Source: Caenispirillum bisanense
GTDB taxonomy: Bacteria > Pseudomonadota > Alphaproteobacteria > Rhodospirillales > UBA2165
DNA: 64,000 nt
Assembly (NCBI GenBank): GCA_945877815.1
Contig: CAMDWJ010000016.1
Coordinates: forward strand, 7,516 to 71,515
Direction: 5' to 3'
In this document: positions 1,487-16,626 of the stretch, piece by piece
How positions within the stretch are numbered: the first letter of the stretch is position 1
Layout: each line of letters starts with the position of its first letter
Notes under the pieces: model-generated
Databases searched by the model: none
The model's input: only the letters and a program-made list of their open reading frames with translations
Told to the model about the DNA's origin: nothing
Translations under genes and position numbers: made by a program

Positions 1487-1860
1487 TGGCACAGATTTGA
1501 GGTAGTGATTTAAGGAGAATTTGGGTCTCGTCATAGTGACGAAGGAACGAAGATGAGACCCAAATCCTCTATCCCCAAAAGGCCTGCTGAACAGGTGGTG
1601 AAGGACATCCGCCGGGCAACGCGGCGGCATTTCTCGGCTGAAGACAAGATTAGGATCGTGCTGGAGGGCCTGCGCGGCGAGGACAGCATTGCCGAGTTGT
1701 GCCGCAAGGAAGGGATCGCCCATACACCTGGTCGAAGGAGTTCATGGAGGCTGGCAAGCGCCGGCTTGCCGGTGACACTGCCCGTGCGACCACCACCGGC
1801 GCGGTGCAAGACCTGCGCTGGGAGGCCTGTGCCCGGCCGGACGTGCTGCCGACTTTAGAT
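1487..1860 (+). mobile_element. IS3-family insertion sequence remnant (left end plus decayed orfA; no orfB or right end)
   Basis: Begins TGGCACAGATTTGAGG (IS3-type TG end); orfA sequence KDIRRATRRHFSAEDKIRIVLEGLRGEDSIAELCRKEGI; continuation YTWSKEFMEAGKRRLAGDTARA is in another frame. End coordinate approximate. Confidence 0.8.
1553..1858 (+). pseudogene. IS3 transposase OrfA, frameshifted and truncated
   Basis: HTH-type OrfA N-terminus in the 1553 frame; frameshift near 1720-1725; similarity fades near 1850. Confidence 0.8.
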
Positions 1861-2123
1861 GACCTGCACGGACATATTTTCTTGACGCCTAATATAGCAA
1901 TTAGGTCCAGGTTCGGGCCCATACCAAATGGACTGAGTGTAAATCCTATCCCTAGATTCTGCGAATTGCGAATTTGGTCGTAGCGCTTGTGTCTCTCCAC
2001 AATCGAAAAATAATAATTCATTTCTTATACTTACGCTATTTTCCCCAAAATGGGTTTGGTGGAGGCTGTGGTTGCGAGCTTTGAGTGTTATATTATAGCT
2101 ATATATATTTCGATGCTGGTATC

Positions 2124-2140
2124 TTGGCACGGGTATTGCT
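2124..2140 (+). promoter_or_regulatory. sigma54 (RpoN) -24/-12 promoter upstream of the giant repeat gene
   Basis: TTGGCACGGGTATTGCT matches TGGCACG-N4-TTGCW; GG at 2126-2127 and GC at 2138-2139 are exactly 10 nt apart; lies in an AT-rich intergenic tract and points toward 2352. Confidence 0.8.
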
Positions 2141-2351
2141 TTGAGATCCAATCAACGATCGAATGCAATCGAGATCATATCTATTAGGCGCTATAAGGTC
2201 ATATGCTGTGATAATCGTTATATATTGTGATTAAAAGCATACGTAACGGTTCATAAGAATTCTCCTGTAGATTAGCGCTCACGGGCGAAGTTCGAAGGTG
2301 GGGCCGGAGTGCCCCATGACGACTAACGGCTAGAAGGGCTGTATTTTTATA

Positions 2352-5300
2352 ATGGCTATTTCGTCGCTTACAGTTACGCAGATCAGCGCTCTGTCGGCGA
2401 CCGTCATCGAGAGTCTGACGACGACGGAGATAGCCACGTTAAGCGCCACCCAGGTCGGCGCGATCAATACCAGCGGCATCGCGGTCATCGATGCGACCCA
2501 ACTTGCCGCCCTGTCGACCACCCAGGTTAGAGCTCTGTCAACGGCCCAGGTCTCCGGCTTTCAAGGCAGTCTGGCGTTTAGCGCGGCCCAACTGGCGGTT
2601 CTGAGCGACCAACAGTTCGGGGCCTTGACCACCTCTCAACTCGACTCCTTCGACACAAGCCACATCGCGGCCGTCAGCACGACGCAACTCGCGGCTCTCT
2701 CCACTACGAAATTCGACTCTCTCGATGCTGTTCAGATCGACGCTCTGAGCACCACGCAGATCGGTGGCGTCACGGTGACGCAGATCGCAGGATTGAGCAC
2801 GACGGATGCGCTCGAGTTCAACGCGACGCAGATCGGCGCTTTGAGCACGACTCAGCTGCGCGCGGTGTCAGCGACGAACCTGTCGGCGTTGGACGAGACG
2901 CAAGCTGTCGGCCTGACGGCGACGCAGGTCGGTGCTCTGACGACGACGCAGGTCGTGGGCCTGTCTGGAACTGATCTTGGCGAGTTGGGCACGACGCAGC
3001 TTGGCGCGCTGAGCACGACGCAGTTGCGCGCGCTGACCACGACGAGCTTCTCCGGGCTCGGCGAGACCGCGATCGCGGCCCTGACGACAACGCAGCTGCG
3101 TGGGCTTACGGCGACGCATTTCGTCGGCTTGAAAACGACGGACGCGGTGGAATTCACCTCGACGCAAATCGGCGCGCTGACAACGACGCAGCTGGGCTCT
3201 TTAACGACCACGAACCTCAATGCCCTGACGACAACGCAGATAGACGCCCTGACGACCGCGCAACTGGTCTCGCTGTCCACGACAAATCTGTCGGCGTTCG
3301 ATGCGACGCAGGTTGCCAAACTGAGCACCACCCAGATCGGCGTTCTGTCGACGACGCAACTGCGCGCGCTTTCGACAACGGACTTCGTCGAGCTGACTAC
3401 GACCCAATTGGGAGCGCTGACGGCAACGCAGCTAAGTTCGCTATCGACCACGAATTTTGCGTCCATTGATGCGACCACGATTGGAGCTTTGACGACGACG
3501 CAGCTGCGCGGCGTGACCACGACGCAGTTGGGCAGCCTGAGCACGACCGACGCGCTCGAGTTTACCTCGACGCAGGTCGGTGCGCTGAGCACGACTCAGT
3601 TGCGCGCCTTGACGGCGGCGAGCCTGTCGGCTCTGGACGAGACTCAATCGGTCGGACTGACGACCACGCAGATCGGTGCTTTGACGACGACGCAGATTTC
3701 GGGCCTGACGGGCACCGACCTCGGCGAGTTGAACACGACGCAACTGGGTGCTTTGAGCAGTACGCAGGTCGGACTTCTGACATCGACGAATTTCTCGGGT
3801 CTCAGCGAGACCACGGTTGGCGCTTTGACGACGACACAGCTGCGTGGCGTGACCGTGACGCAACTGGGCGGCTTGAATACGACGGACGCGGTCGAGTTCA
3901 CTTCAACGCAGGTCGGCGCGCTGACAACGACGCAGCTGGGCGCTCTGACGACGACGAACTTGAATGCGTTGACGACGACGCAGATCGGCGGGCTGAGCAC
4001 GACGCAGCTGGTCTCCCTGACGACGACCAGGCTGTCGGCGTTCGATGCGACTCAGGTTGCCGAACTGAGCACGACGCAGATCCGCGGATTGACGACAACG
4101 CAGATGCGTTCGCTGTCGACCACGGATTTTGCCGAGATTACAACGACCCAACTGGGGGCGCTGTCGGCGGCACAGCTGGGCGTTCTGTCGACCACCAATT
4201 TGTCGTCCATCGACGCGACGACGATCGCAACGCTGAGCACGACGCAATTCGGCGGCGTGACGACGACACAAATCGCATCGCTGAGCACGACGGACGCACT
4301 CGAATTCACCTCGACTCAACTCGGCTCTCTTAGCACGACGCAACTGCGCGCCTTGGCTGCGACGAACCTGTCGGCGCTGGATGAGACGCAGGTCGTCGGC
4401 CTGACGACGACGCAGGTCGATAGCTTGACGACGACGCAGGCTGCCGGTCTGACGGGCACGGATCTAGGTGAATTGAACACGACACAGTTGGGTGCCTTGA
4501 GCACGACGCAACTGCGCGCGCTGACCACGACGAATTTCTCGGGTCTCAGCGTGACAACGATCGTCGCTTTGACGACGACACAGCTGCGCGGCGTGACGGT
4601 GACGCAGCTGGGTGCCTTGAGCACGACGGATGCGCTCGAATTTACCGCGACGCAGATCGGTGCGCTGACGACGACGCAGGTGGGCGCGCTGACCTCGACC
4701 AACCTAAGCGCCCTGACGACGACCAAGCTCGTCGGTGTGACGACGACGCAGATCGCTTCTTTGACGACGACGCAGGTTTCAGGCCTGACGGGAACCGATC
4801 TCGGTAATCTGACGACGACGCAATTGGGTGCCTTGAGCACGACGCAGCTGCGTGTGCTGACCATGACGAATTTCTCGAGCATCAGCGAGACCACGATAGC
4901 AGCCTTGACGACGACGCAGTTGCGCGGCGTGACCGTGATTCAACTGGGCGGCCTGAGCACGACGGACGCGATCGAGTTCACCTCGACCCAGGTCAGCGCT
5001 TTGACGACGACGCAGCTGGCCGCTCTTACCACGACGAATCTCAATGCCCTGACCACGACGCAGATAGACGGTCTGACAACAACGCAAATAAGTTCTTTGA
5101 CGACGGCAAGGCTGTCGGCGTTCGACGCGACGCAGATCGGCCAGCTGAGAACGACTCAGATCGGCGGTCTGACGACGACGCAGCTGAGTTCTCTGTCGAC
5201 CACGGATTTCGCGGAAATCACGACGACGCAACTGGGCGCACTGACCTCGACGCAATTAGGGGTTCTGTCGACGACCAACCTGTCGTCCATTGACGCAACC

Positions 5301-8300
5301 ACGATCGCCAGGTTGAGCACGACGCAGCTGCGCGGACTCACCGTCACGCAACTCGCCAGCCTGAGCACGACCGACGCGCTTGAATTCACCTCGACGCAGC
5401 TGGGTGCGTTGACGACGACGCAATTGCGCGCTTTCTCGGCGGCAAACCTGTCGGTGTTGGATGAGACGCAGTCGGTCGGCCTGACGACCACGCAGATCGG
5501 TGCCTTTACGACAACGCAGGTGGTGGGCCTGACGGGAACGGATCTGGGCGAGCTGAACACCACGCAGCTTGGTGCTTTGAGCAGTACGCAGATCGGTCTT
5601 TTGACCACGACGAATTTCTCTGGTCTCAGCGAAACCACGGTCGGGACTTTGACGACGACGCAACTGCGCGGCGTCACTGTGACGCAGTTGGGTAGTCTGA
5701 ACACGACGGACGCGGTTGAGTTCACCTCGACGCAGATCGGCGCCTTGACGACGACGCATTTGGCGGCGCTGACGACGACGAACCTGAATGCGCTGACGAC
5801 GACGCAGATCGGCGGGTTAAGTACGACCCAGCTGCGCTCCCTGTCGGCGACGAACCTATCGGCGTTCGGTGCGACGCAGATCGGCCAGTTGAGTACGACG
5901 CAAATCGGCGGTTTGACGACGACGCAGCTCGGACCTCTGTCGAGCACCGACTTCTTGGAATTCACGACGACGCAATTGGTCGCTTTGACCTCGACGCAAT
6001 TGGGCGTGCTGTCGGGCACGAACCTGTCTTCGATTGATGCGACCACAATCGCGGCATTGAGCACGACGCAGCTGCGCGGCCTCACCGTTACGCAGTTCGG
6101 CGGTCTTAACACGACGGATGCGCTCGAATTTACCTCGACGCAGATCGGCTCCCTGAGCACGACTCAGCTACGTGCGGTTACGGCCGCGAGCCTGTCGGCG
6201 CTGGACGTAACCCAGGCGGTCGGTCTGACAACCACGCAGGTCGGCGCTTTGACCACAACGCAAGTCAATGGCCTGACGGGCACTGACTTAGGCGAGCTGA
6301 ACACGACGCAACTTGTTGCGCTGAGGAGTACGCAGATCGGTGTTCTGACCTCGACGAGTTTCTCGGGTCTAACCGAGACCGCAGTCGGCGCCCTGACGAC
6401 GACACAGCTGCGTGGCGTAACGGTCACACAACTCGGCGGTCTGACGACGACGGACGTCGTCGAGTTCACCTCGACGCAGGTCGGCGCGCTGATGACGCAG
6501 CAGCTGGCTGCGCTGACGACGACGAATCTGAATGCACTGACGACCACCCAGATCGGCGGTCTGACGACGACCCAGCTGGTCTCCTTGTCGACCACGAATC
6601 TGTCGGCGTTCGATGCGACGCAGATCGGTCAGCTGAGCACCACCCAGATCGGCGCCTTGACGACGACGCAGTTTGGTTCTCTGTCGACCACTGACTTCGT
6701 CGAATTCACGACGACGCAGTTGGGTGTGCTCACGGCAACGCAAATAAGCTCGCTGTCGACCACGAATCTGTCGTCCGTCGCGGGGACTACGATTGCGGCC
6801 TTGAGCACGACGCAGCTGCGCGGAATTACGACGACGCAGATCGGCGGCCTAACGACGACCGACGCGCTCGAATTCACCTCAACGCAGATCGACGCCCTAA
6901 CGGCAACGCAGCTGCGTGCCTTTTCGGGAACGAACCTGTCGGCGCTGGACGCCACGCAGGTCGTTGGCCTGACGACCACGCAAATCGCGATCGTGACGAC
7001 GACGCAAATTTCTGGTCTGAAGGGGACCGACCTGGGCGAGTTGGACACGACTCAGCTGGGTGCGATGAGTACCACGCAGCTACGCGCGCTGACCACGACA
7101 AGCTTCTCTGAACTCAGCGCGACCACGATCGCGGCCCTGACGACGACGCAAGTGCGCGGCGTTACGGCGACGCAGTTGAGCGCCTTGACCACGACGGACG
7201 CAGTCGAATTCACCTCGACACAGATCGAGGCGCTGACGGTCACCCAGCTGGGTTCCCTGACGACGACCAACCTGAATGCCCTGACGATAACCCAGCTCGA
7301 CGGCCTGACGACGACGCAGCTGGGCTCTCTGACGGCGACGAACCTGTCGGCGTTTGGTGCGACGCAAGTAAGCGAACTGAGCACGACCCAGGTCGGCGGC
7401 TTGACCACGACGCAGCTGGGGGCGTTGAACAGGATAGACTTTGGTGAGTTCACAACGACTCAGCTTGGCGCGCTGACGGCGACGCAGCTTGGGGCGCTGT
7501 CGGCCACCAATCTGTCCTCCATCGACGCGACCGCGGTCGCGATCTTGAGCACGACGCAGATCGGCGGCGTGACGGTGACGCAGATCGCCGGCTTGACCAC
7601 GACGGACGCACTCGAATTCTCCGTGACGCAGATTGGTGCGCTGAGCACGACGCAGCTGCGCGCCGTATCGGTGACGAACCTGTCGGCGTTCGATGCGACA
7701 CAGATCGGCGCTTTGAGCACGTCGCAGATCGTGACGCTGACGACGACGCAGCTGGCGTCTTTGTCGACCACCGACTTCGCCGAATTCACGACGACGCAGG
7801 TGATCGGCCTGACCGCGACGCAGCTGGGGGCGTTGTCGACCAGCAATCTGTCGGCTATTGACGCAGCAACGTTTGTCGAACTCAACACGACGCAGTTGCG
7901 AGGCGTCACTGTTACGCAATTGGGGGCGCTCACCACGACGGACGCGCTCGAATTCTCCTGGACCCAGTTAGGCGCGTTGAGCACTACGCAGCTGCGCGCC
8001 CTGACGGCGACAAACGTGTCGACGCTGGACGAAACGCAAATCGATGGACTGACGACCACTCAGGTTGGGGCTTTGACGATTACGCAGGTGGCCGGCCTGA
8101 CGGGCGTGGACGTCGCCGAATTCGATACAACCCAGCTTGGCGCGTTGAACAGCACGCAGATCGGAGCTCTGACCACCACCAATTTCTCCGATCTCGGCGA
8201 AACCTCGATCACGGCGCTGAACACGACCCAGCTGCGCGGCATAACGGTAACGCAAATCCAAGGTCTGACGACGACGGACGCGATCGAGTTCACCTCGACG

Positions 8301-11300
8301 CAGATCGCCGCACTCACAACGACGCAGCTGCGCGCTTTGACGACGACGAATTTCTCTGAACTGGTCTCGACTCAGGCGGTGGCCTTGACGACCACGCAGA
8401 TCGGCGCCTTGACGATAACGCAGGTTTCGGCGCTGTCGACCACGAACCTATCGGCGATTGATGCGACGCAGATCGGCGGATTGACGACCAGCCAGGTGCG
8501 CGCCTTGACGACGACGCAGCTGGCGTCTTTGTCGACCACGGACTTCGCGGATTTCGCGACCACCCAACTCGTCGCTCTGACCTCGACCCAAATTGGAGCG
8601 CTGTCGACAAGCAATTTCTCCTTCATCGATGCGACCACGGTCGCGGCATTGAGCACGACGCAACTGCGCGGCCTGACGACGACGCAGATCGATAGTCTGA
8701 ATACGACGGATACGCTGGAATTCACCTCGGCGCAGATCGGTAGCCTGACGACGACGCAGCTGACTTCCTTGTCGGCGACGAACCTGTCGGTTCTGGACGC
8801 GACGCAGGTTGCGGGCCTGACTGTAACTCAGGTGCGAGCCTTGACGACGACGCAGGTCGTCGAACTGACCGCCACGGATGTGGCCGATCTCTCGGCAACC
8901 CAGGTTGGTGCGCTGACAACGACGCAGATCGATGCTCTTTCGACGACGACGATCGCCAATATCGCGGAAACGACCGTCGACGGACTGTCGGCAACCCAGA
9001 TCGGTGGGCTGAACACGACGCAGCTGGGCGCGCTGACGACGACGAGACTGTCGACCTTCGACGAAACGCAGATCGGCGGGCTGACGACCACTCAGATCGA
9101 GGGGCTGAGCACGACGCATCTGACGTCGTTGTCGACGACGAATTTTTTGGCGTTCAACGTGACGCAGATCGCCGGACTGAGCACGACCCAGATCGGGGGG
9201 ATCAACCTCACGCAGATCGGCTCGCTGGCCACGACGGATGCGCTCGAATTCACCTCGACGCAGGTGGGCGCGTTGAGCACGACGCAGCTGCGCGCTGTAT
9301 CGGCGACGAATATGTCGGTGCTGACTGCGACGCAAGCCAGCGGACTGACGGAGACGCAGATTGCGGCCTTGACCACTACGCAGATCGGCGAACTTACGGC
9401 CACCGATATCGGCGAGCTCTCGACAACCCAGATTTCTGCGCTGACCACCACTCAAATCGAAGCGGTCGCAACGGCGACCATCGCCAATATTACGATCACA
9501 AGCCTCAGTGGGCTGACCGAGACCCATATTACTGCCCTAACGACGACGCAGATCGACAGCCTGACGACCACCAATGTTGTGGCGCTGACGACGACCCAGA
9601 TCACCGGACTGAGCACGACTCAAGTGGTCGTGCTGACGACATCGCAGTTGTCGGCGCTAAGCGCGACGCAAGCAGCCGAGTTGAACACGACGCAGATCAG
9701 CGGTCTGACGACGACGCAACTCGGAACGCTGTCGAGCGACGATTTCGCGGAATTCACGACCACGCAAGTGGACGTTCTGACCGCGACCCAATTGGGGTCG
9801 TTGTCGGCGACGAACCTGTCCGCCATCGGCGCGGCCACGGTCGCGGAATTCAGCACGACGCAGATCGGCGGGCTTACCGTCACTCAGATCGGCGCTTTGA
9901 GCACGACGGACGCGGTTGAATTCACCTCGACGCAGGTCGGTTCGCTGACGACGACGCAATTGCGGGCCTTGACGGCGGCGAACCTGTCGGCGCTGGCTTC
10001 GACGCAGATCGACGGCCTGACCACGACGCAGGTCTCGGTCTTGACCGTGACGCAGCTCGGCGGCCTGACCACGACCGATGCGCTCGAATTCACCGCGGCG
10101 CAGATCGGGGCCTTGACGACGACACAGTTGCGCAGTTTGTCGGCGGAGAACGTGTCGGCGCTGAACGAGACCCAGGCGGTTGGCCTGACGGAAACCCAAG
10201 TCGGCGCGGTGACGGTGACGCAGGTCGCCGGCCTGACGGGCACCGACCTCGGCGAATTGAACACGACCCAGCTCGGCGCGCTGACCAGCACGCAGCTGCG
10301 CGCATTGACCACGACGAGCTTCTCCGAACTCAGCGCGACCACGGTGACGGCACTCAACACGACGCAACTTGGCGGTGTGACGGTCACGCAGATCGGCGCC
10401 CTGAATACGACGGACGCGATTGAATTCACCTCGACGCAGATCGGCGCGCTCTCGACAACGCAGTTGCGTTCCTTGTCGGCGACGAACCTGTCGGCGCTTG
10501 ATGCGGCGCAGTCCGTCGGGCTGACGATCACGCAGATCGGCGCCTTGACGGTGACTCAGGCGGCCGGCCTAACGGGAACCGATCTCGGGGATCTGAACAC
10601 GACCCAGCTTGGCGGGCTGACCAGCACGCAGATCGGCGTGCTGACGTCTACGAACTTTGCCGGCCTCGGCGCGGCCACGATTGGCGCTCTGACGACGACG
10701 CAACTGCACGGCGCGACAACGACGCAGATCGACGTATTGAACGTGACGCAGATCGGTGCTTTGACGACGACGCAGCTCGGCGGCGTGAGCACGACGCAGC
10801 TACGCGCGCTGTCGACGACGAACCTGTCTGCGCTCGATCCAGGGCAGTTCAGCTCATTGTCGACGACCCAGATCGTTGGGCTGACGACGACGCAGCTCGG
10901 TTCGCTGTCGAACTCCGACTTCGTGGAACTTACGACGACGCAGTTGCGCACCTTGACGGCCACGCAGCTGGGTTCGCTGTCGACCACGAATATATCCTCG
11001 ATTGACGCAGCCACGATCGCAACGCTGAGCACGACGCAACTCGCCGGATTCACTGTCACGCAGCTCGGCAGTCTGGACGCTGTCGATGCGGCCGAGTTCA
11101 CCTCGACGCAAATCGGCGCGCTGAGTACGACCCAACTGCGTGCCCTGTCGTCGACCGGCCTGTCGGCGCTGAGTGCGGTGCAGTCGGCCGGTCTGACGAG
11201 CACGCAGATCGGCGCTTTGACAACGACGCAGGTGGCCGGTCTCGCGGGCGCCGATCTCGAGGAGTTGAATACGACCCAGCTTGGCGGGTTGACCAGCACG

Positions 11301-14300
11301 CAGATCGGGGTCCTGACGACCACAAGCTTCTCTGATTTGAGTGCGGCGACGATTGCGGCGTTGAGCACGACACAGCTGCGCGGAGCTACGCTAACGCAGA
11401 TCGCAGGTCTCGGCGCAGCGGATGCGGTCGAATTCACCTCGACGCAGCTCGGCGGCCTGACGACGACGCAATTGCGCGCCTTCTCGGCCGCGAACCTGTC
11501 GGAATTTGTGTCGACGCAGGTGGTGGGATTGACGAGCACGCAGATCGGCGCGCTGACGACGACCCAGGTGGCCGGCCTAGCGGGCGCCGATCTTGACGAC
11601 TTGAGCGCGACGCAGTTGGGCGGGTTGGCGACCACTCAGATACGCGCGCTTTCCACGACGAGCTTCTCCGATATCGGCGCCACCTCGGTAGCGGCGCTCA
11701 ATACGACTCAGATCGGCGGCGTGACGGTGACGCAGATCGCGGGTCTGAACGTGGCGGATGCGCTTGAATTCACCTCGACGCAGATCGGTGTGCTGACAAC
11801 GACGCAATTGCGCACCCTGTCGACGACGAACCTGTCGGAACTCTTCTCGACGCAGGTGATCGGCCTCACGGAAACCCAGATCGGGGCCATGACAACTTCG
11901 CAGGTGGCATCGCTATCGACGACGAACCTGTCGGCGTTGAACGCGATACAGGTGGGCGGGCTGAGCACGACGCAGATTCGCGTCCTGACGACGACCCAAC
12001 TCGATTCTCTGTCGACCACGGATCTTGCAGATCTGACGACGACGCAATTGGTCGCCTTGACTGCAACGCAACTGGCCGCGCTTTCTACCAGCAACATTTC
12101 TTACTTCGATGCGGCCACGGTCGCCATACTGAGCACGACGCAGCTGCGGGGGCTCACGACCACGCAGATCGACGGTTTGAGCGCGACGGACGCACTCGAA
12201 TTCACCTCGACGCAAGTAAGTGCCTTGACGACCACGCAGTTGACGGCCTTGTCAACGACGAATGTATCGGTATTGACCGCGGAGCAGGTTGCCGGACTGA
12301 CGGTGACGCAGATTGCATCCCTAACCACCACGCAAGTCTCCGAATTGTCCGCCACGGACGCTGGCGAATTCTCCACGACGCAGATCGGCGCGCTGTCCAC
12401 GACCCAGATCGAATCGATCTCGACGACGACCATCGCCAATATCACGGAGGCAACGGTCGCCGGACTGACATCGACACAGATTTTTGCGCTGAACACGTCG
12501 CAGATCGATCGTCTGACCTCGGAAACCGTTGCGTCGCTCAGCACCACGCAGATCAGGGGGCTAAGCACGACACAACTGGATGTGCTGTCGACGACGAATT
12601 TGTCGGCGTTCGCTGAAACCCAGATCGGCGCGCTGAGCGCGACGCAGGTCGCGGGGCTGACGACGACACATGTGGATTCGTTGACGCCGGCGAATTTGGC
12701 CGCGCTTACCGCGACGCAGGTCGGGGCGCTGAGTACCACTCAAATCGGCGCCTTGACGACGATGCAGCTGGATTCGGTGGCGACCGCGGACTTCGCCGAG
12801 TTCACGACAACCCAACTGGTTGCGCTGACCGAGACACAACTCGGCGCGCTGTCGGCTAACAATGTGTCGGCCATCGACGCGGGCACTTTCGCGGTGCTGA
12901 CCACGACTCAGCTCACCGGGGTCACGGCGGCACAAATCGGTGGATTGAGTACCACCGATGCGCTTGAATTCACGTCGACTCAGCTCGGCTCCCTGACGAC
13001 GACGCAGCTGCGTGCCTTCCCGGCTGCAAACCTGTCGGTCCTGGATGCGATACAGGTCGGCGGCCTGACAACGACGCAGATCGAGGCACTGACGATCACG
13101 CAGGTGGCCGAACTGTCCGCCACGGATGCAGATGAATTTACCACGACCCAGGTCGGCGCGCTGACCTCCACTCAAATCGCCGCGCTTTCGACCACGGCCA
13201 TCGCCAATATCACGGCCGCGGCCCTCGGTGGGATGACGACAACCCAGATATCCGCGCTAACGACCCCGCAGATCGCCAGTCTGACCGACGCTAGCGTTGC
13301 ATTGCTGACGACGACGCAGATCGAGGGGCTGAGCACGACGCAGCTGCGCACCTTCTCGACCACGAATCTGGCGGCGTTTGACGCGGCCCAATTCGGCTCG
13401 CTGAACACGACGCAAATCGGCGGATTGACCACAACCCAGATCGGGTCTGTGACGGCCGACGACTTTGTGGAATTCACGACGACGCAACTGGTTGCGCTGA
13501 CGGCGACCCAGCTCGGTTCCTTGTCGACGACAAATCTATCGTCCGTCAATGCAACCACGATCGCGGGGTTGAGCACGACGCAGTTGCGCGGGCTGACGGT
13601 TACGCAGATCGGCAGTCTGACCGACGCGGACGCGCTCGAATTCACCTCGACCCAGATCGGTGGTCTGACGACGACGCAGCTGCGGGCCTTCATGTCGACC
13701 AATCTGTCGACGTTCACTTCGACGCAGATTGACGGCCTGACGACGACGCAATTGAGGGCGCTCACGACGACCCAGGTTGCCGGCCTGACGGGGGCGGACA
13801 TTGGCGAGCTGAACGCGGCCCAGCTTGAGGCTCTGACGGGTACACAGATCGGGGTGTTGACGACGACGAGCGTCGCCGGTCTGAGCTCTACGACGGTTGC
13901 GGCCTTGAGCACGACCCAACTGCGCGGTCTCACGGTAACGCAGATCGACGGCTTGACCGCAGCGGATGCGCTCGAATTCATCTCGACGCAGATCGGCGGT
14001 CTTACGACGACGCAGCTGCGGGCCTTCTCGGCTGCCAATTTGTCGACGTTGAATTCGACGCAGATTGACGGCCTGACGACAACGCAATTACGATCGCTCA
14101 CAACGACCCAGGTCGCCGGCATGACGGGCGCGGACATCAACGAGCTGAACGCGAGCTTGCTCGAAGCGCTCACCGGCACCCAGATCGGGTATTTGACTCC
14201 GGCGAATTTTTCCGCAATCGGCACGACCGCGATCGGCGCTCTATCCACGACACAGCTGCGCGGCGTAACGACAACGCAGCTCGAGGTCTTGACGACTACG

Positions 14301-16610
14301 CAGATTGGGGGCCTGGCGGCGACCCAGTTCGGCGGATTGACCACGACACAGTTGGGCGCATTGACGACGACGAACCTGTCGGCGCTCGATGCGGATCAAA
14401 CCGGCGCACTGAATACGACGCAAATCGTCGGACTGACCATAACGCAGTTGGGGGCTCTGTCGACCACGGACGTCGCGGGGTTCACGACGACGCAAATTGG
14501 TGCGCTGACTGCGACGCAGCTGGGTTCGCTGTCGACTGGCGGCGTGTCAACCTTGGATGCGGCGGCGATTGCGGTGCTGAGCACGACGCAGATTGGCGGA
14601 TTGACCGTTACGCAAATCGGAGCCTTGAACACCACGGATGCGCTTGAATTCGGCTCGACGCAGATCGGGGCGCTGAGCACGACGCAACTGCGTGCCCTGA
14701 CGTCAACCAACCTGTCGGCGCTGGAGGCGGCGCAGTCGGCTGGACTGACAACCACGCAGATCGGTGCTTTGGCGACGACCCAGGTCGCAGGCCTTACCGG
14801 CGCCGACCTTGGCGAATTAACCTCGACACAGCTCGGCGCGTTGAGCAGTACGCAGATCGGCGTTCTGACGACCACCAACTTCGCATCTCTCGATGCGGCA
14901 ACCATTGCGGCACTGACCACGACGCAACTCGCCGGTGCGACGGTATCGCAGATCGCCGGCCTGACCTTGGCAGACGCGGCCGAATTCAGCTCGACGCAGA
15001 TCGGTGCCTTGAGCACGACGCAACTGCGCGCCTTTACGGCAACCAACCTGTCGGCCCTCGATGCGGCGCAGTCGGCGGGCCTGACGGTCGCGCAGATCGG
15101 CTCCTTGATGACGACGCAGGTCGCGGGTCTGAGCGGTGTCGATGTCGGCGATTTGACCACGACGCAGCTCGGTGGCTTGACCAGCGCGCAGATCGGTGCT
15201 CTGACGACGACGAACTTCGCCGGTCTCAGTGCCGCGACGATTACGGCGCTGAGTACGACGCAACTGCAGGGTATGACGATTACGCAGATCGCCGGCCTGA
15301 ATGCTGCGGACGCGCTTGAGTTCACCTCGACGCAGATTGGCGGACTGACGACGACGCAGTTGCGCGCCTTCTCGGCGACGAATCTGTCGGCCCTGGATGC
15401 GGTGCAGTCGGCGGGGCTGACGACCGCGCAGATCGCAACCTTGACCACGACCCAGGTTGCCGGCCTAGTGGGCGCCGATATCGACGAGTTGACCACGACG
15501 CAACTCGACGCCTTGACCAGCTCGCAGATCGGGGTTCTCAGCTCGACGAGCTTCTCCGAAATCAGCGCGGGAACCGTCGCGGCCCTGAGCACGACGCAGC
15601 TCCGCGGGCTCACGGTGACGCAGATCGAGGGCTTGAACGCGGCGGACGCGATCGAATTCACTTCGACGCAAATCGGCGCGCTGACGACAACGCAACTGCG
15701 TGCCTTCTCGGCGACCAATGTGTCGGCGCTGGATGCTGGTCAGGTCGGCGGGCTGACGACCACGCAGCTCAGGGCCTTGACGACAACGCAGATCGCAGGA
15801 CTATCCGCCGCTGATACGGACGAATTCTCGACGACGCAGGTCGGCGCGCTGACCACTACTCAGATCGCGGCTCTCTCGACGACGACCATCGCCAATATTT
15901 CGGAAGCAGCCCTCGATGGCCTGACGATAACCCAGCTTGGCGCGCTGACGACCACGCAAATTAATGTCCTGACGGCGCCGATCGTCTCGACTTTCGACAC
16001 GACGCAGGTCGGCGCATTGAGCACCGGCCAGATCGCGGTGCTGAGCACGACCCAGGTGGATGCGCTGTCGGCCGCTAGCCTTTCGGCCCTCGATGCTGCG
16101 CAGTTCGCGACGCTGAACACGACGCAGATCCGCGGATTGAACGTTACGCAGATCGACGGTCTGAGCGTGACGGATACGGCCGAGTTCAGCTCGACGCAGA
16201 TCGGTGCGCTAAGCACAACGCAACTGCGGGCCTTGTCGGCGGCGTACCTGTCGTCACTGACCGCGGAACAGGCGGTCGGTCTGACGACGACGCAGATCAG
16301 TACCTTGACCGAGACGCAGATCGCTGAATTGACCGCCGTCGACGCCGACGAATTCTCGACGACGCAAATCGGCGCGCTGACCACCACGCAGATCGCGGCG
16401 CTCTCTACCACGACCATCGCCAATATTTCGAACCCTGCGCTCGACGGACTGACGACAACTCAGATCTTCGCGCTGACGATCACGCAGATCGATTATCTGA
16501 CCCCGGCCAGTATCGTCTCGTTGACCACGACGCAGATCGCTGGCTTCAGCACGACCCAGATCGACAGCTTCACGCAGGAACAATTGGACGCCTACAACAG
16601 CGTCGTTTGA
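2352..16610 (+). CDS. giant Thr-rich octapeptide-repeat protein (4752 aa), putative surface or extracellular protein of unknown function
   Basis: Single open frame of 14.26 kb; repeats such as LTTTQIGA/LSTTQLRA/LSTTDALE throughout; no signal peptide, RTX nonamer or autotransporter barrel visible. Confidence 0.9.
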   Translation: MAISSLTVTQISALSATVIESLTTTEIATLSATQVGAINTSGIAVIDATQLAALSTTQVRALSTAQVSGFQGSLAFSAAQLAVLSDQQFGALTTSQLDSFDTSHIAAVSTTQLAALSTTKFDSLDAVQIDALSTTQIGGVTVTQIAGLSTTDALEFNATQIGALSTTQLRAVSATNLSALDETQAVGLTATQVGALTTTQVVGLSGTDLGELGTTQLGALSTTQLRALTTTSFSGLGETAIAALTTTQLRGLTATHFVGLKTTDAVEFTSTQIGALTTTQLGSLTTTNLNALTTTQIDALTTAQLVSLSTTNLSAFDATQVAKLSTTQIGVLSTTQLRALSTTDFVELTTTQLGALTATQLSSLSTTNFASIDATTIGALTTTQLRGVTTTQLGSLSTTDALEFTSTQVGALSTTQLRALTAASLSALDETQSVGLTTTQIGALTTTQISGLTGTDLGELNTTQLGALSSTQVGLLTSTNFSGLSETTVGALTTTQLRGVTVTQLGGLNTTDAVEFTSTQVGALTTTQLGALTTTNLNALTTTQIGGLSTTQLVSLTTTRLSAFDATQVAELSTTQIRGLTTTQMRSLSTTDFAEITTTQLGALSAAQLGVLSTTNLSSIDATTIATLSTTQFGGVTTTQIASLSTTDALEFTSTQLGSLSTTQLRALAATNLSALDETQVVGLTTTQVDSLTTTQAAGLTGTDLGELNTTQLGALSTTQLRALTTTNFSGLSVTTIVALTTTQLRGVTVTQLGALSTTDALEFTATQIGALTTTQVGALTSTNLSALTTTKLVGVTTTQIASLTTTQVSGLTGTDLGNLTTTQLGALSTTQLRVLTMTNFSSISETTIAALTTTQLRGVTVIQLGGLSTTDAIEFTSTQVSALTTTQLAALTTTNLNALTTTQIDGLTTTQISSLTTARLSAFDATQIGQLRTTQIGGLTTTQLSSLSTTDFAEITTTQLGALTSTQLGVLSTTNLSSIDATTIARLSTTQLRGLTVTQLASLSTTDALEFTSTQLGALTTTQLRAFSAANLSVLDETQSVGLTTTQIGAFTTTQVVGLTGTDLGELNTTQLGALSSTQIGLLTTTNFSGLSETTVGTLTTTQLRGVTVTQLGSLNTTDAVEFTSTQIGALTTTHLAALTTTNLNALTTTQIGGLSTTQLRSLSATNLSAFGATQIGQLSTTQIGGLTTTQLGPLSSTDFLEFTTTQLVALTSTQLGVLSGTNLSSIDATTIAALSTTQLRGLTVTQFGGLNTTDALEFTSTQIGSLSTTQLRAVTAASLSALDVTQAVGLTTTQVGALTTTQVNGLTGTDLGELNTTQLVALRSTQIGVLTSTSFSGLTETAVGALTTTQLRGVTVTQLGGLTTTDVVEFTSTQVGALMTQQLAALTTTNLNALTTTQIGGLTTTQLVSLSTTNLSAFDATQIGQLSTTQIGALTTTQFGSLSTTDFVEFTTTQLGVLTATQISSLSTTNLSSVAGTTIAALSTTQLRGITTTQIGGLTTTDALEFTSTQIDALTATQLRAFSGTNLSALDATQVVGLTTTQIAIVTTTQISGLKGTDLGELDTTQLGAMSTTQLRALTTTSFSELSATTIAALTTTQVRGVTATQLSALTTTDAVEFTSTQIEALTVTQLGSLTTTNLNALTITQLDGLTTTQLGSLTATNLSAFGATQVSELSTTQVGGLTTTQLGALNRIDFGEFTTTQLGALTATQLGALSATNLSSIDATAVAILSTTQIGGVTVTQIAGLTTTDALEFSVTQIGALSTTQLRAVSVTNLSAFDATQIGALSTSQIVTLTTTQLASLSTTDFAEFTTTQVIGLTATQLGALSTSNLSAIDAATFVELNTTQLRGVTVTQLGALTTTDALEFSWTQLGALSTTQLRALTATNVSTLDETQIDGLTTTQVGALTITQVAGLTGVDVAEFDTTQLGALNSTQIGALTTTNFSDLGETSITALNTTQLRGITVTQIQGLTTTDAIEFTSTQIAALTTTQLRALTTTNFSELVSTQAVALTTTQIGALTITQVSALSTTNLSAIDATQIGGLTTSQVRALTTTQLASLSTTDFADFATTQLVALTSTQIGALSTSNFSFIDATTVAALSTTQLRGLTTTQIDSLNTTDTLEFTSAQIGSLTTTQLTSLSATNLSVLDATQVAGLTVTQVRALTTTQVVELTATDVADLSATQVGALTTTQIDALSTTTIANIAETTVDGLSATQIGGLNTTQLGALTTTRLSTFDETQIGGLTTTQIEGLSTTHLTSLSTTNFLAFNVTQIAGLSTTQIGGINLTQIGSLATTDALEFTSTQVGALSTTQLRAVSATNMSVLTATQASGLTETQIAALTTTQIGELTATDIGELSTTQISALTTTQIEAVATATIANITITSLSGLTETHITALTTTQIDSLTTTNVVALTTTQITGLSTTQVVVLTTSQLSALSATQAAELNTTQISGLTTTQLGTLSSDDFAEFTTTQVDVLTATQLGSLSATNLSAIGAATVAEFSTTQIGGLTVTQIGALSTTDAVEFTSTQVGSLTTTQLRALTAANLSALASTQIDGLTTTQVSVLTVTQLGGLTTTDALEFTAAQIGALTTTQLRSLSAENVSALNETQAVGLTETQVGAVTVTQVAGLTGTDLGELNTTQLGALTSTQLRALTTTSFSELSATTVTALNTTQLGGVTVTQIGALNTTDAIEFTSTQIGALSTTQLRSLSATNLSALDAAQSVGLTITQIGALTVTQAAGLTGTDLGDLNTTQLGGLTSTQIGVLTSTNFAGLGAATIGALTTTQLHGATTTQIDVLNVTQIGALTTTQLGGVSTTQLRALSTTNLSALDPGQFSSLSTTQIVGLTTTQLGSLSNSDFVELTTTQLRTLTATQLGSLSTTNISSIDAATIATLSTTQLAGFTVTQLGSLDAVDAAEFTSTQIGALSTTQLRALSSTGLSALSAVQSAGLTSTQIGALTTTQVAGLAGADLEELNTTQLGGLTSTQIGVLTTTSFSDLSAATIAALSTTQLRGATLTQIAGLGAADAVEFTSTQLGGLTTTQLRAFSAANLSEFVSTQVVGLTSTQIGALTTTQVAGLAGADLDDLSATQLGGLATTQIRALSTTSFSDIGATSVAALNTTQIGGVTVTQIAGLNVADALEFTSTQIGVLTTTQLRTLSTTNLSELFSTQVIGLTETQIGAMTTSQVASLSTTNLSALNAIQVGGLSTTQIRVLTTTQLDSLSTTDLADLTTTQLVALTATQLAALSTSNISYFDAATVAILSTTQLRGLTTTQIDGLSATDALEFTSTQVSALTTTQLTALSTTNVSVLTAEQVAGLTVTQIASLTTTQVSELSATDAGEFSTTQIGALSTTQIESISTTTIANITEATVAGLTSTQIFALNTSQIDRLTSETVASLSTTQIRGLSTTQLDVLSTTNLSAFAETQIGALSATQVAGLTTTHVDSLTPANLAALTATQVGALSTTQIGALTTMQLDSVATADFAEFTTTQLVALTETQLGALSANNVSAIDAGTFAVLTTTQLTGVTAAQIGGLSTTDALEFTSTQLGSLTTTQLRAFPAANLSVLDAIQVGGLTTTQIEALTITQVAELSATDADEFTTTQVGALTSTQIAALSTTAIANITAAALGGMTTTQISALTTPQIASLTDASVALLTTTQIEGLSTTQLRTFSTTNLAAFDAAQFGSLNTTQIGGLTTTQIGSVTADDFVEFTTTQLVALTATQLGSLSTTNLSSVNATTIAGLSTTQLRGLTVTQIGSLTDADALEFTSTQIGGLTTTQLRAFMSTNLSTFTSTQIDGLTTTQLRALTTTQVAGLTGADIGELNAAQLEALTGTQIGVLTTTSVAGLSSTTVAALSTTQLRGLTVTQIDGLTAADALEFISTQIGGLTTTQLRAFSAANLSTLNSTQIDGLTTTQLRSLTTTQVAGMTGADINELNASLLEALTGTQIGYLTPANFSAIGTTAIGALSTTQLRGVTTTQLEVLTTTQIGGLAATQFGGLTTTQLGALTTTNLSALDADQTGALNTTQIVGLTITQLGALSTTDVAGFTTTQIGALTATQLGSLSTGGVSTLDAAAIAVLSTTQIGGLTVTQIGALNTTDALEFGSTQIGALSTTQLRALTSTNLSALEAAQSAGLTTTQIGALATTQVAGLTGADLGELTSTQLGALSSTQIGVLTTTNFASLDAATIAALTTTQLAGATVSQIAGLTLADAAEFSSTQIGALSTTQLRAFTATNLSALDAAQSAGLTVAQIGSLMTTQVAGLSGVDVGDLTTTQLGGLTSAQIGALTTTNFAGLSAATITALSTTQLQGMTITQIAGLNAADALEFTSTQIGGLTTTQLRAFSATNLSALDAVQSAGLTTAQIATLTTTQVAGLVGADIDELTTTQLDALTSSQIGVLSSTSFSEISAGTVAALSTTQLRGLTVTQIEGLNAADAIEFTSTQIGALTTTQLRAFSATNVSALDAGQVGGLTTTQLRALTTTQIAGLSAADTDEFSTTQVGALTTTQIAALSTTTIANISEAALDGLTITQLGALTTTQINVLTAPIVSTFDTTQVGALSTGQIAVLSTTQVDALSAASLSALDAAQFATLNTTQIRGLNVTQIDGLSVTDTAEFSSTQIGALSTTQLRALSAAYLSSLTAEQAVGLTTTQISTLTETQIAELTAVDADEFSTTQIGALTTTQIAALSTTTIANISNPALDGLTTTQIFALTITQIDYLTPASIVSLTTTQIAGFSTTQIDSFTQEQLDAYNSVV
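2367..16592 (+). repeat. degenerate 24-bp (8-aa) coding tandem repeat with 168-bp and 744-bp higher-order periods
   Basis: Landmark octamers at 2793, 3537, 4281, 5361, 6105, 6849, 7593, 7929, 12177, 13617, 15297 and the tail at 16593 are all multiples of 24 bp from 2793. Confidence 0.95.
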
Positions 16611-16626
16611 TAAGGTGGTGTGCGGC

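What the first reader, a model, noticed from the sequence alone, without database searches (positions are those of the whole stretch)
2352..16610. 4752-aa protein made of about 590 in-register octapeptides, a candidate giant surface filament or adhesin
Seen: apart from a 5-aa head, one 6-aa break (FQGSLA) and a 5-aa tail, the protein is L/F/I/V-[T/S/N/D]-x-T-[Q/D/N]-[I/L/V]-x-x. From residue 148 (nt 2793) to nt 16593 the distance is exactly 575 x 24 bp, and every landmark I checked is in phase. I saw no Cys and only one Trp; Lys and Pro are rare, and it is Thr-rich and acidic. Synonymous codons vary widely between units while length is conserved, which points to selection on a rigid register. 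Established: hydrophobic-[S/T]-x-x-[Q/E/D] is the helix N-capping box with hydrophobic staple. Inference: a solenoid or superhelix of very short helices, roughly 0.5 MDa, possibly O-glycosylated, acting as an adhesin, sheath, S-layer-like or mineral/ice-templating fibre. I cannot assign it to a characterised family.
Basis: partly seen in the sequence, partly recalled or inferred. Interest (0 to 1): 0.85.

Follow-up and report, generated by a model that had tools for sequence, protein, structure and literature searches.

The report
Giant ALTTAQ-repeat helical-screw rod protein
This is a real, transcribed gene for a 480-kDa protein built only of 592 in-register eight-residue repeats of the catalogued but unstudied Pfam "ALTTAQ" family; it probably folds into one very long rod of tiny capped helices, a shape that designers recently called almost absent from nature, and it is probably sugar-coated and exported, though that is unproven.

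Summary
The ORF at 2352-16610 encodes 4752 aa: 5 aa, 8 octads, FQGSLA, 584 octads, then YNSVV, with no phase slip. It is not an assembly artefact. The longest exact DNA repeat is 34 bp, a second assembly agrees, and lake metagenomes from several studies lie collinear on it without indels.

It is not an unassignable family. Pfam PF20080 (ALTTAQ repeat) hits it 168 times, although nothing is published on that family. AlphaFold2 (pLDDT 92) puts one five-residue helix in every octad, with position 2 as N-cap. The best PDB sequence match is HeliScrew4 (9ZEM), a designed 8-mer "alpha-helical screw".

New context:
- It is the giant member of four paralogs with conserved head and tail caps.
- These paralogs are absent from 60 relatives.
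- Two paralog loci sit among glycosyltransferase and methyltransferase genes, one directly beside an OGT-like GT41 gene.
- The gene has one of only six perfect sigma-54 promoter sites in the genome.
- Lake metatranscriptomes cover it.

The export route and function are inferred, not shown. Verdict: the largest pure member of a known, uncharacterised kind, of moderate interest.

The parts
1553..1858 (+). Remnant of an IS3-family transposase orfA (HTH_Tnp_1), followed by an A+T-rich spacer (about 1860-2350)
   Evidence: Weak Pfam hit, E=2e-4; sequence read. Suggests an acquired or rearranged locus.
2125..2140 (+). Perfect sigma-54 (RpoN) -24/-12 promoter consensus, TGGCACGGGTATTGCT, 211 nt before the ATG
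   Evidence: It is the only perfect match in the window and one of 6 in the 3.98-Mb genome. Near-consensus sites precede flgF, flgE, flgI and fliK in the same genome. Function is not shown.
2260..2273 (+). Leader block TTCTCCTGTAGATT; exact pattern matches found in three of the four paralog leaders
   Evidence: Alignment of the four upstream regions. The exact pattern searches found it at the C16, C13-end and C47 paralog leaders and nowhere else in the genome; the C13 small paralog's copy is diverged.
2327..2342 (+). Conserved CGGCTAGAAGGGCTGT block holding the likely ribosome-binding site (GAAGGG)
   Evidence: Identical in three paralog leaders.
2352..16610 (+). Coding sequence of the 4752-aa all-repeat protein (P0001), stop codon included
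   Evidence: PF20080 ALTTAQ_rpt, 1537 bits, 168 stretches.
2352..2576 (+). Conserved head: MAISS, 8 octads and the 6-residue register break FQGSLA (nt 2559-2576)
   Evidence: Heads are 79-80% identical over 133 aa among the four paralogs, with the break at the same place. In the paralog model the break is a 9-residue loop and residues 41-47 form an irregular loop.
2577..16592 (+). Body: 584 octads in one unbroken register, with nested 7-, 14-, 31-, 32- and 42-octad super-repeats
   Evidence: AlphaFold2 of res 860-1307 gives pLDDT 91.7 and 56 helices in 56 octads.
2577..7301 (+). Region of 248-aa (31-octad) super-repeats, 62-82% identical
   Evidence: dS 0.7-1.0 and dN/dS 0.15-0.38, so these are old duplications under purifying selection.
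16398..16610 (+). Conserved tail (about 70 aa: ..LDGLTTTQI.ALTITQID.LT..SI.SLTTTQIAGF.TTQ..SF..EQ.DAY...), ending in YNSVV and the stop codon
   Evidence: Shared by all four paralog C-termini. In the paralog model the last 10 residues form a longer helix. It is a candidate cap or C-terminal export signal; this is inference.

Best explanation
The gene encodes a 480-kDa, very acidic, cysteine-free protein that is a pure array of 592 ALTTAQ-family octads (consensus L-T-T-T-Q-L/I-G-A).

Fold:
- Each octad forms a five-residue helix on positions 3-7.
- Position 2 (Thr/Ser/Asp/Asn) is the N-cap.
- Position 5 (Gln/Asp/Asn) is the capping-box partner.
- Positions 1 and 6 (Leu/Ile/Val/Phe) form the hydrophobic staple and core.
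- The mini-helices wind into one continuous alpha-helical screw, the fold solved for the designed protein HeliScrew4.
- The resulting rod would be very roughly 0.15-0.25 micrometres long, with a surface dense in Thr and Ser. The length is inferred.

Family: it is the giant member of a species-restricted family of four paralogs. These differ mainly in octad number (66 to 592) and share a conserved head, including the FQxSLA break, and a conserved tail.

Inferred steps:
1. Transcription comes from a sigma-54 promoter.
2. Surface Thr/Ser are O-glycosylated in the cytoplasm by the OGT-like and other glycosyltransferases encoded around the paralogs.
3. The protein is exported without a Sec signal. 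Type I secretion is the leading guess and the flagellar type III route is an alternative.
4. Outside the cell it forms a long glycosylated surface or extracellular fibre.

Shown here: the gene, its register, family membership, purifying selection and presence in lake metatranscriptomes. Predicted: the fold. Inferred: glycosylation, export and role.
For: - Real gene and register.
- Family: PF20080, 1537 bits.
- Fold, window segment: AlphaFold2 gives pLDDT 91.7 and pTM 0.75, with one helix per octad. Helix occupancy by octad position is 0, 0, 1, 1, 1, 1, 0.88, 0.18.
- Fold, whole 544-aa paralog: pLDDT 86.9, helical octads end to end.
- PDB: the best sequence hit is HeliScrew4, 9ZEM, at E=9e-10 for a single sequence and 5e-16 for the profile, aligned octad on octad.
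- The preprint 10.64898/2025.12.04.691947 describes 8-mer screws with an apolar core and S/T/D/N N-caps, and reports a 2.2-A crystal structure.
- Selection: dN/dS is 0.15-0.38 between internal repeats. Strain variants are substitutions only.
- Transcription: metatranscriptome contigs from several lake studies lie on the gene at 99-100% identity, while the neighbours at 17.3-20 kb are almost bare.
- Paralog family with conserved caps.
- Glycosylation context on contig C13: GT4, TPR-GT9-like-methyltransferase, the 544-aa paralog, TPR-GT41 and a Glyco_trans_1_2-like gene lie on one strand, with another paralog divergent.
- Glycosylation context on C22: a paralog 3' end is followed by an FkbM methyltransferase and a Glyco_trans_1_2-like gene, with a DegT gene nearby.
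- The GT41 enzyme is OGT-like: human OGT E=1e-84, XcOGT 6e-74, HMW1C-like only 1e-6.
- The flagellin genes lie elsewhere, so this is not the flagellin glycosylation island.
- Extracellular precedent: in homologues ALTTAQ stretches sit with RTX, TPS, Big, Calx-beta, cadherin and FG-GAP domains. In L037 one is followed by a complete T1SS operon.
- The genome has one HlyD-type MFP with a PrtD-like ABC.
- Sigma-54 site.
Against: - No glycosyltransferase or secretion gene lies next to this gene. Its neighbours are an FAD monooxygenase, an IS remnant, GreA and an HI0933-like protein.
- The protein has no RTX repeats and no Sec or Tat signal by inspection.
- The genome's T1SS pair has a more obvious substrate, a 3615-aa RTX ORF on C32.
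- The genome holds about 12 GT41 genes, so one adjacency could be chance.
- GT41 is not near ALTTAQ genes in the 7 other loci I examined.
- The AlphaFold2 alignments were built from the protein's own repeats and paralogs, and repeat proteins can give over-confident models.
- Foldseek found no convincing PDB match. The best was mesothelin, TM 0.2-0.4.
- I had no access to the model coordinates, so superhelix geometry and rod length are not measured.
- RNA evidence comes from assembled metatranscriptome contigs, which can contain DNA.
Confidence: 0.55

Rival explanations
1. The protein has the same fold but stays in the cytoplasm. There it would act as a glycosylated structural rod, spacer or ruler, and as a native cytoplasmic substrate of the OGT homologues, rather than as a surface fibre.
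For: - No signal peptide, no RTX repeats and no adjacent secretion genes.
- OGT-type enzymes act in the cytoplasm (established knowledge; homology).
- None of the three pure or nearly pure ALTTAQ loci examined elsewhere has secretion genes nearby.
Against: - In multidomain homologues ALTTAQ stretches sit almost only with extracellular-type domains and T1SS or TPS signals.
- The composition (no Cys, pI 4, hardly any Lys) is typical of exported giant repeat proteins.
- A 0.15-0.25 micrometre rigid rod is a sizeable fraction of the length of a small planktonic cell.
Confidence: 0.2
2. The protein is exported like a flagellin. Expression would come from a sigma-54 promoter together with late flagellar genes. 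The protein would be glycosylated in the cytoplasm and then pass unfolded through the flagellar type III apparatus by an N-terminal signal in the conserved head.
For: - A perfect sigma-54 site lies upstream.
- In this genome near-consensus sigma-54 sites precede flgF, flgE, flgI and fliK.
- Flagellins are the classic Gram-negative cargo that is O-glycosylated in the cytoplasm and exported without a Sec signal (established knowledge).
- The four paralogs conserve the N-terminal head.
- The flagellin leader contains GGCAGAAGGGCCTGTAA, which resembles the paralogs' CGGCTAGAAGGGCTGT block.
I treat that as a lead only.
Against: - The ftr-like enhancer CCCGGCA-N5-TGCCG seen clearly upstream of the flgF and flgE promoters is absent within 300 nt of this gene's promoter.
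- Other sigma-54 sites in the genome serve nitrogen-scavenging transporters.
- The flagellar genes are on other contigs.
- No precedent is known to me for a 480-kDa flagellar type III substrate.
Confidence: 0.1
3. The array is a flexible, mucin-like, largely disordered Thr-rich polymer, and the predicted helical screw is a modelling artefact.
For: - 24% Thr and 9% Ser, low complexity, and self-derived alignments for AlphaFold2.
- No solved natural structure matched by fold.
Against: - The register is strictly conserved over 4672 residues, with hydrophobic residues at positions 1 and 6 in 573 of 584 octads.
- dN/dS is 0.15-0.38, and there are no indels among strains. Disordered linkers tolerate indels.
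- A designed protein with the same octad pattern crystallised as the screw.
Confidence: 0.07
4. The regular Thr lattice on the rod is the functional surface itself: an ice-binding or mineral-templating fibre of a lake bacterium.
For: - Thr at positions 2-4 repeats on a rigid 8-residue lattice.
- The organism is found in lake and freshwater metagenomes.
- Thr arrays on rigid repeats mark several ice-binding proteins (established knowledge).
Against: - There is no sequence or fold similarity to any ice-binding family.
- If the Thr residues are glycosylated, the flat lattice would be masked.
- Surface geometry could not be measured here.
Confidence: 0.05
5. The ORF length is an assembly artefact of a shorter repeat gene.
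For: - The genome is a short-read draft (84 contigs).
- Two other paralogs are broken at contig ends.
- No long read spans the gene.
Against: - The longest exact repeat is 34 bp and repeats are 49-78% identical in DNA.
- A second assembly calls a product of the same length.
- Collinear contigs come from several independent studies.
Confidence: 0.02

Closest known systems
Pfam PF20080, ALTTAQ repeat (ALTTAQ_rpt)
   Same: Direct member: 168 matched stretches, 1537 bits against a cut-off of 26.4. About 1,670 cluster representatives among 1.84 billion proteins match the first 600 residues.
   Different: - The family has no published function or structure.
- Most members carry the repeats as one segment of a multidomain protein, with RTX, TPS, Big, calpain and others.
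- This protein is 100% repeat. Its 4752-residue run is more than twice the longest continuous run (2005 aa) among 301 homologues fetched.
- No homologue fetched exceeds about 49% identity, and the two highest values come from alignments covering less than half of the query. None of 60 relatives' genomes matches the head.
HeliScrew4 (PDB 9ZEM), designed 8-mer alpha-helical screw (bioRxiv 10.64898/2025.12.04.691947)
   Same: - Eight-residue period.
- Octad L-T-P-E-Q-I-A-A against L-T-T-T-Q-L-G-A here.
- S/T N-cap and apolar positions 1 and 6.
- Significant sequence match, E=9e-10 single sequence and 5e-16 profile.
- One short helix per octad in the AlphaFold2 models here.
   Different: - HeliScrew4 is a 120-residue, 15-octad artificial protein, with Pro at N1 where this protein has Thr.
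- The authors found only one natural PDB example (7QLR) and called the fold 'dark matter'. Here a natural protein would contain 592 units.
- Units per turn and handedness could not be compared, because no coordinates were available.
Giant type I-secreted repeat adhesins (LapA, SiiE, MpIBP, RTX adhesins)
   Same: - Half-megadalton size, acidic, Cys-free, mostly a tandem-repeat extender, no N-terminal signal peptide.
- Homologues with ALTTAQ stretches carry RTX repeats or sit beside T1SS genes.
   Different: - Here there are no RTX nonapeptides, no Big-type beta domains, no N-terminal retention module, no ligand-binding domain and no adjacent T1SS genes.
- The extender is alpha-helical, not a string of beta-sandwich domains.
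Repeat glycoprotein adhesins with dedicated cytoplasmic glycosyltransferases (Gram-positive serine-rich repeat proteins with GtfA/B; AIDA-I with the heptosyltransferase Aah; flagellins with FlmG or Maf)
   Same: A Ser/Thr-rich repetitive substrate whose paralogs are encoded beside soluble, TPR-bearing or GT-B glycosyltransferases: OGT-like GT41, GT9-like and GT4.
   Different: - Different fold and no sequence relation.
- No accessory Sec system or autotransporter domain.
- Glycosylation here is inferred only from gene neighbourhood of the paralogs, not of this gene.
Mesothelin / stereocilin-type alpha-superhelix (best Foldseek hits)
   Same: A superhelix of short helices in an extracellular adhesion protein.
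   Different: TM-scores are only 0.2-0.4, rmsd 9-12 A, with longer helices and no 8-residue period. This is a resemblance only.

Membership tests
Pfam PF20080 ALTTAQ repeat | Matches the family HMM above the curated gathering score | tested here: met
   1536.7 bits against 26.4, 168 stretches over the whole length. Genome search with the family confirms it.
8-mer alpha-helical screw (HeliScrew type) | Strict 8-residue repeat with one short helix per unit | tested here: met
   592 in-phase octads. DSSP on the AlphaFold2 model shows 56 helices in 56 octads on positions 3-7. This is a prediction, not an experiment.
8-mer alpha-helical screw (HeliScrew type) | S/T/D/N at the N-cap and apolar side chains forming the core | tested here: met
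   Position 2 is T/S/D/N in 545 of 584 octads. Positions 1 and 6 are both hydrophobic in 573 of 584. This matches the description in the preprint.
8-mer alpha-helical screw (HeliScrew type) | Sequence similarity to the solved example | tested here: met
   9zem_A, E=9.2e-10 (phmmer) and 5.1e-16 (profile), aligned in octad register.
8-mer alpha-helical screw (HeliScrew type) | Tight clockwise superhelix with 2.5-4 units per turn | not testable with these tools
   Model coordinates are not returned. Foldseek did not list 9ZEM or 7QLR among its top 50.
RTX / type I-secreted giant adhesin | RTX Ca-binding nonapeptide repeats near the C-terminus | tested here: not met
   No PF00353 hit in the protein. 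The only RTX ORF of the genome is on contig C32.
RTX / type I-secreted giant adhesin | Cognate ABC, MFP and OMP genes at the locus | tested here: not met
   Neighbours are unrelated. The genome's single HlyD-type MFP and PrtD-like ABC lie on C43, 27 kb from a paralog fragment.
RTX / type I-secreted giant adhesin | Uncleaved C-terminal secretion signal | not testable with these tools
   The conserved about 70-aa tail is a candidate, but T1SS signals have no usable consensus.
Substrate of an OGT-like (GT41) protein glycosyltransferase | Substrate gene linked to the transferase gene | tested here: inconclusive
   - Met for the 544-aa paralog: the GT41 gene lies 208 nt downstream on the same strand, inside a glycosyltransferase run.
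- Not met for the window gene.
- Not met at 7 ALTTAQ loci in other organisms.
- The genome has about 12 GT41 genes.
Substrate of an OGT-like (GT41) protein glycosyltransferase | Sugar actually attached to Ser/Thr | not testable with these tools
   Needs mass spectrometry or glycan staining.
Flagellar (sigma-54 / FlbD-type) regulon | -24/-12 promoter upstream of the gene | tested here: met
   A perfect TGGCAC-N5-TTGCT at 2125-2140.
Flagellar (sigma-54 / FlbD-type) regulon | ftr-like enhancer as at this genome's flagellar sigma-54 promoters | tested here: not met
   CCCGGCA-N5-TGCCG is clear at flgF, flgE and a C53 gene, and degenerate at flgI and fliK. Nothing equivalent lies within 300 nt upstream of the giant gene's site.
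Sec/Tat-exported protein | N-terminal signal peptide | tested here: not met
   The N-terminus MAISSLTVTQISALSATVIESL has no basic n-region, no uninterrupted hydrophobic core and no twin arginine. This is by inspection; no predictor was available.

The most novel reading that the evidence does not exclude
This paralog family is the natural, giant form of the alpha-helical screw. It would be a rod of hundreds of capped mini-helices whose length is set simply by octad number (66 to 592 units). It would also be a native substrate of bacterial OGT homologues, whose targets are largely unknown. The cell would coat the rod with O-linked sugars in the cytoplasm and then export it without a Sec signal, possibly through the flagellar type III or a type I system. 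Expression would be under sigma-54 control, giving a previously undescribed class of glycosylated bacterial surface fibre.
Probability: 0.25. Interest if true: 0.75.

Novelty: new member of a known kind. Interest (0 to 1): 0.5.

Why it matters
If the predicted fold is right, three things follow.
- A shape that protein designers recently reported as nearly absent from nature (one PDB example) is in fact a catalogued bacterial repeat family with well over a thousand sequence clusters. This gene would be its longest uninterrupted example, a 592-unit, roughly 0.2-micrometre single-chain rod.
- The 544-aa paralog, with the same caps and only 66 octads, is a convenient object for solving the first natural structure.
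- The glycosyltransferase island around the paralogs offers a concrete candidate substrate for bacterial OGT homologues, a long-standing gap.

The biological role in an uncultured lake alphaproteobacterium is still unknown. Similar ALTTAQ giants have already been flagged elsewhere in this scan, so this case is an extreme and well-contextualised member rather than a new kind.

Tried and rejected
- **Fold search.** Both models searched against the PDB gave only weak alpha-solenoid matches (mesothelin, TM 0.2-0.4). Neither 9ZEM nor 7QLR was listed, so there is no independent fold confirmation.
- **Literature.** There are no papers on 'ALTTAQ'. 7QLR appears only as a molecular-replacement example.
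- **Secretion genes.** No PrtD-type ABC is above cut-off anywhere. One HlyD-type MFP and ABC pair lies on C43, not adjacent to any paralog, and an RTX ORF on C32 is the likelier substrate.
- **N-glycosylation idea.** N-X-S/T sequons are enriched (90 against 49±4 in column-preserving shuffles). However, the adjacent GT41 is OGT-like, not HMW1C/NGT-like, so I did not adopt it.
- **Flagellar regulon.** The sigma-54 site was found, but there is no ftr-like enhancer, and no convincing sigma-54 site upstream of the other paralogs or the flagellin gene.
- **Conserved neighbourhood in other organisms.** Seven loci were examined. None has GT41, and one has a full T1SS operon, but that protein has ALTTAQ octads only at its N-terminus.
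- **Empty-site comparison.** In the same-genus genome G001 the flanking genes are not syntenic, so there is no conclusion about insertion.
- **Exact look-up.** The protein is not in the 15-billion-protein collection.
- **Minus-strand ORFs.** The long ORFs inside the gene (up to 440 aa) were rejected as by-products of the periodic composition.
Full report
**1. The observation**

The window has one ORF at 2352..16610 (+) of 4752 aa. A phase scan shows a single register change, of +6, near residue 70 and none afterwards. Cutting the sequence accordingly gives MAISS, 8 octads, FQGSLA, 584 octads and YNSVV, which is 592 octads.

Repeats are nested. There are 7 octads (56 aa) and 14 octads (112 aa). 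In residues 76-1650 there are 31-octad (248-aa) units at up to 82% identity, and 32- and 42-octad units occur elsewhere. At position 5 the residues follow a seven-octad pattern, Q-Q-Q-D-Q-Q-N alternating with T-Q-Q-D-Q-Q-N.

**2. Is it real?**

- The longest exact DNA repeat inside the CDS is 34 bp. Adjacent super-repeats are 49-78% identical in DNA, with dS 0.7-1.0 and dN/dS 0.15-0.38. These are old duplications kept by selection on the protein, and a short-read assembler has ample unique sequence.
- An ENA metagenome assembly (159-kb contig) calls a 4752-aa product at the same place. It differs at 1 of the first 11,295 bases compared.
- Assembled contigs from lake and freshwater metagenomes of at least four studies lie collinear along the gene. 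A roughly 1-2% diverged strain shows 187 substitution sites over the 15-kb stretch laid. The only indels listed lie just after the stop codon.
- Metatranscriptome contigs from several lake studies lie on many parts of the gene at 99-100% identity, while the neighbouring genes at 17.3-20 kb are nearly bare. This points to transcription in situ, with the caveat that such libraries can contain DNA.
- No long read spans the gene.

**3. What family?**

Pfam-A gives PF20080, "ALTTAQ repeat", with 168 stretches and 1537 bits. NCBIfam gives nothing. No paper in the library contains the word ALTTAQ. The protein therefore belongs to a catalogued but unstudied repeat family.

A full HMMER scan of 1.84 billion cluster representatives with the first 600 residues finds 1672 proteins at E≤1e-3, 625 at ≤1e-10 and 126 at ≤1e-30, none above 44% identity. 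In homologues the repeats usually form one segment of large multidomain proteins. Partner domains include RTX, two-partner-secretion (TPS), Big, Calx-beta, cadherin, FG-GAP/VCBS, DUF4347 and calpain-like domains.

Among 301 homologues fetched, this is the only one that is octad-periodic over 100% of its length. The next longest continuous run is 2005 residues.

**4. Fold**

I built an alignment from the protein's own best-matching segments and predicted residues 860-1307. The result was mean pLDDT 91.7 and pTM 0.75, with 56 helices in 56 octads. Helix occupancy by octad position is 0, 0, 1, 1, 1, 1, 0.88, 0.18.

So position 2 (T/S/D/N) is the N-cap and position 5 (Q/D/N) is N3. Positions 1 and 6 are N' and N4.

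The best PDB sequence match is 9ZEM, "HeliScrew4", at E=9e-10 and 5e-16 with a profile. It aligns octad on octad, LTPEQIAA against LTTTQLGA. The source preprint (10.64898/2025.12.04.691947) describes:
- 2.5-4 units per turn, an apolar core and S/T/D/N N-caps;
- a 2.2-A crystal structure;
- only one natural PDB example (7QLR), which led the authors to call the fold "dark matter".

Foldseek against the PDB gave only weak alpha-superhelix hits (mesothelin, TM 0.2-0.4). At 592 octads, 2.5-4 octads per turn and about 1 nm per turn, it comes to roughly 0.15-0.25 micrometres.

**5. A paralog family with conserved caps**

The 3.98-Mb draft genome, from an uncultured lake alphaproteobacterium, holds further copies:
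- a complete 544-aa gene (C13:100540-102174, minus strand);
- two 5' fragments running off contig ends (C47, at least 1923 aa, and the end of C13);
- two 3' fragments (the end of C43 and the start of C22).

That makes four genes in all. Their heads are 79-80% identical over 133 aa and include the FQxSLA break at the same place. Their tails share ..LDGLTTTQIAALTITQID.LT..SI.SLTTTQ..GF..TQ..SF...Q.DAY.N... The small paralog has exactly the same plan: 5 aa, 8 octads, FQSSLA, 58 octads and YINAS.

Its AlphaFold2 model (pLDDT 86.9) is helical octads end to end. It has an irregular loop at residues 41-47, a 9-residue loop at the break and a longer C-terminal helix. The register break is therefore a conserved feature of a cap, not an accident.

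The family is patchy. No match to the head or body was found in 60 genomes of the same genus, family and order. PF20080 occurs in only 2 of 150 other genomes sampled from the class. An IS3 orfA remnant and an A+T-rich spacer precede the window gene.

**6. Glycosylation context**

On C13 the small paralog lies in a same-strand run: GT4, TPR-GT9-like-methyltransferase, the paralog, TPR-GT41, then a Glyco_trans_1_2-like gene. A weak GT25-like gene sits beyond, and a second paralog is divergent from the run. On C22 a paralog 3' end is followed by an FkbM methyltransferase and a paralogous Glyco_trans_1_2-like gene, with a DegT aminotransferase nearby.

The GT41 protein is OGT-like: human OGT E=1e-84, Xanthomonas XcOGT 6e-74 over nearly its full length, and the N-glycosyltransferase HMW1C-like only 1e-6. 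Flagellin genes are on other contigs. Soluble TPR-bearing transferases beside a Thr-rich repeat protein point to cytoplasmic O-glycosylation.

The caveats are real:
- The genome has about 12 GT41 genes.
- The window gene has no transferase neighbour.
- None of seven ALTTAQ loci I examined in other organisms has GT41 nearby.

**7. Regulation**

A perfect sigma-54 consensus (TGGCACGGGTATTGCT) lies at 2125-2140, 211 nt before the ATG. It is the only perfect site in the window and one of six in the genome. Near-consensus sites precede flgF, flgE, flgI and fliK, and perfect sites precede an SLT-domain gene and two nitrogen-type binding-protein genes.

The flgF and flgE promoters carry a clear ftr-like CCCGGCA-N5-TGCCG motif about 100 nt upstream; flgI and fliK have only degenerate versions. 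The giant gene has none, so membership of the flagellar regulon is not supported.

The paralog leaders share an AATTYTCCTGTARATT-type block and a block holding the likely ribosome-binding site. The first has exact pattern matches in three of the four leaders and a diverged copy in the small C13 paralog; the second is identical in three leaders.

**8. Export**

There is no Sec or Tat signal by inspection, no RTX repeats and no adjacent secretion genes. The genome has one HlyD-type MFP (371 bits, over cut-off) beside a PrtD-like ABC on C43, and an RTX ORF of 3615 aa on C32 that is its obvious substrate.

Extracellular location is argued only by analogy:
- the domain company ALTTAQ keeps in homologues;
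- a full T1SS operon after one of them (though that protein is mostly non-repeat);
- the acidic, Cys-free composition.

**9. Comparison and verdict**

The gene is a member of PF20080. It works, by prediction, like the designed HeliScrew proteins. It resembles giant T1SS adhesins in size and composition but fails their defining tests. It resembles glycosylated repeat adhesins only through the neighbourhood of its paralogs.

Earlier notes of this scan, read after I had reached the Pfam and HeliScrew results, describe similar ALTTAQ giants of up to 2,942 aa in at least eight other genomes. This one is the largest and purest. It adds the capped paralog family, the sigma-54 site, the evidence of selection and the evidence of transcription.

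I rate it a new member of a known but uncharacterised kind, of moderate interest.

Noticed in passing
window 2125-2140; genome contigs C37, C45, C26, C51, C53, C39: The genome has only six perfect sigma-54 consensus sites. Near-consensus sites precede flgF, flgE, flgI and fliK; flgF and flgE carry a clear ftr-like CCCGGCA-N5-TGCCG motif about 100 nt upstream, flgI and fliK only degenerate versions. This looks like a Caulobacter-style sigma-54/FlbD flagellar hierarchy in this lake alphaproteobacterium.
   Followed up: partly
window 2327-2342 and genome C37, upstream of the flagellin gene at 26067: The paralogs' leader block CGGCTAGAAGGGCTGT resembles GGCAGAAGGGCCTGTAA in the flagellin leader. 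This could be chance or a shared translational-control element.
   Followed up: no
window 2352-16610 (protein positions): N-X-S/T sequons are enriched: 90 of 124 Asn, against 49±4 in column-preserving shuffles. Most are N5-x-S7 (TNLS/TNFS) and N2-T-T. Their meaning is unclear, because the linked GT41 is OGT-like rather than NGT-like.
   Followed up: partly
window 1553-1858: A frameshifted or truncated IS3-family transposase orfA remnant lies directly upstream of the A+T-rich promoter region of the giant gene. An IS3 orfA start also sits at the very beginning of contig C43, next to the T1SS genes.
   Followed up: no
window 16610-16627: The giant gene's stop and the stop of the convergent GreA gene (16627-17352, minus strand) are only 16 nt apart, with no terminator-like hairpin visible in the 16-nt gap (the terminator scan itself did not cover this region).
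   Followed up: no
genome-wide (G000): There are about 12 OGT-like GT41 genes in a 4-Mb genome, one of them about 10 kb from the flagellin genes on C37. This is an unusually large complement of protein-glycosyltransferase candidates.
   Followed up: no
genome contig C32, around 22593-22886 (minus strand): A 3615-aa open frame carries RTX repeats. It is the likely substrate of the single T1SS pair on C43.
   Followed up: no
L037 (Logan ERR9698321 contig), 460-17191: A 3756-aa protein with ALTTAQ-like octads only at its N-terminus is followed by a 145-aa ORF, a C39-ABC, an MFP and an OEP, which together form a complete type I secretion operon.
   Followed up: partly
window 2818-16583, minus strand: Dozens of long ORFs (up to 440 aa) lie antisense to the giant gene. 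They are periodic by-products of the repeat composition, not genes.
   Followed up: yes
genome contig C47, 5991-8787: Upstream of one paralog lie genes that I read from their sequences as the EF-P lysylation set: a lysine 2,3-aminomutase-like gene, a GenX/EpmA-like gene and EF-P. They are probably unrelated (assignment by inspection only).
   Followed up: no
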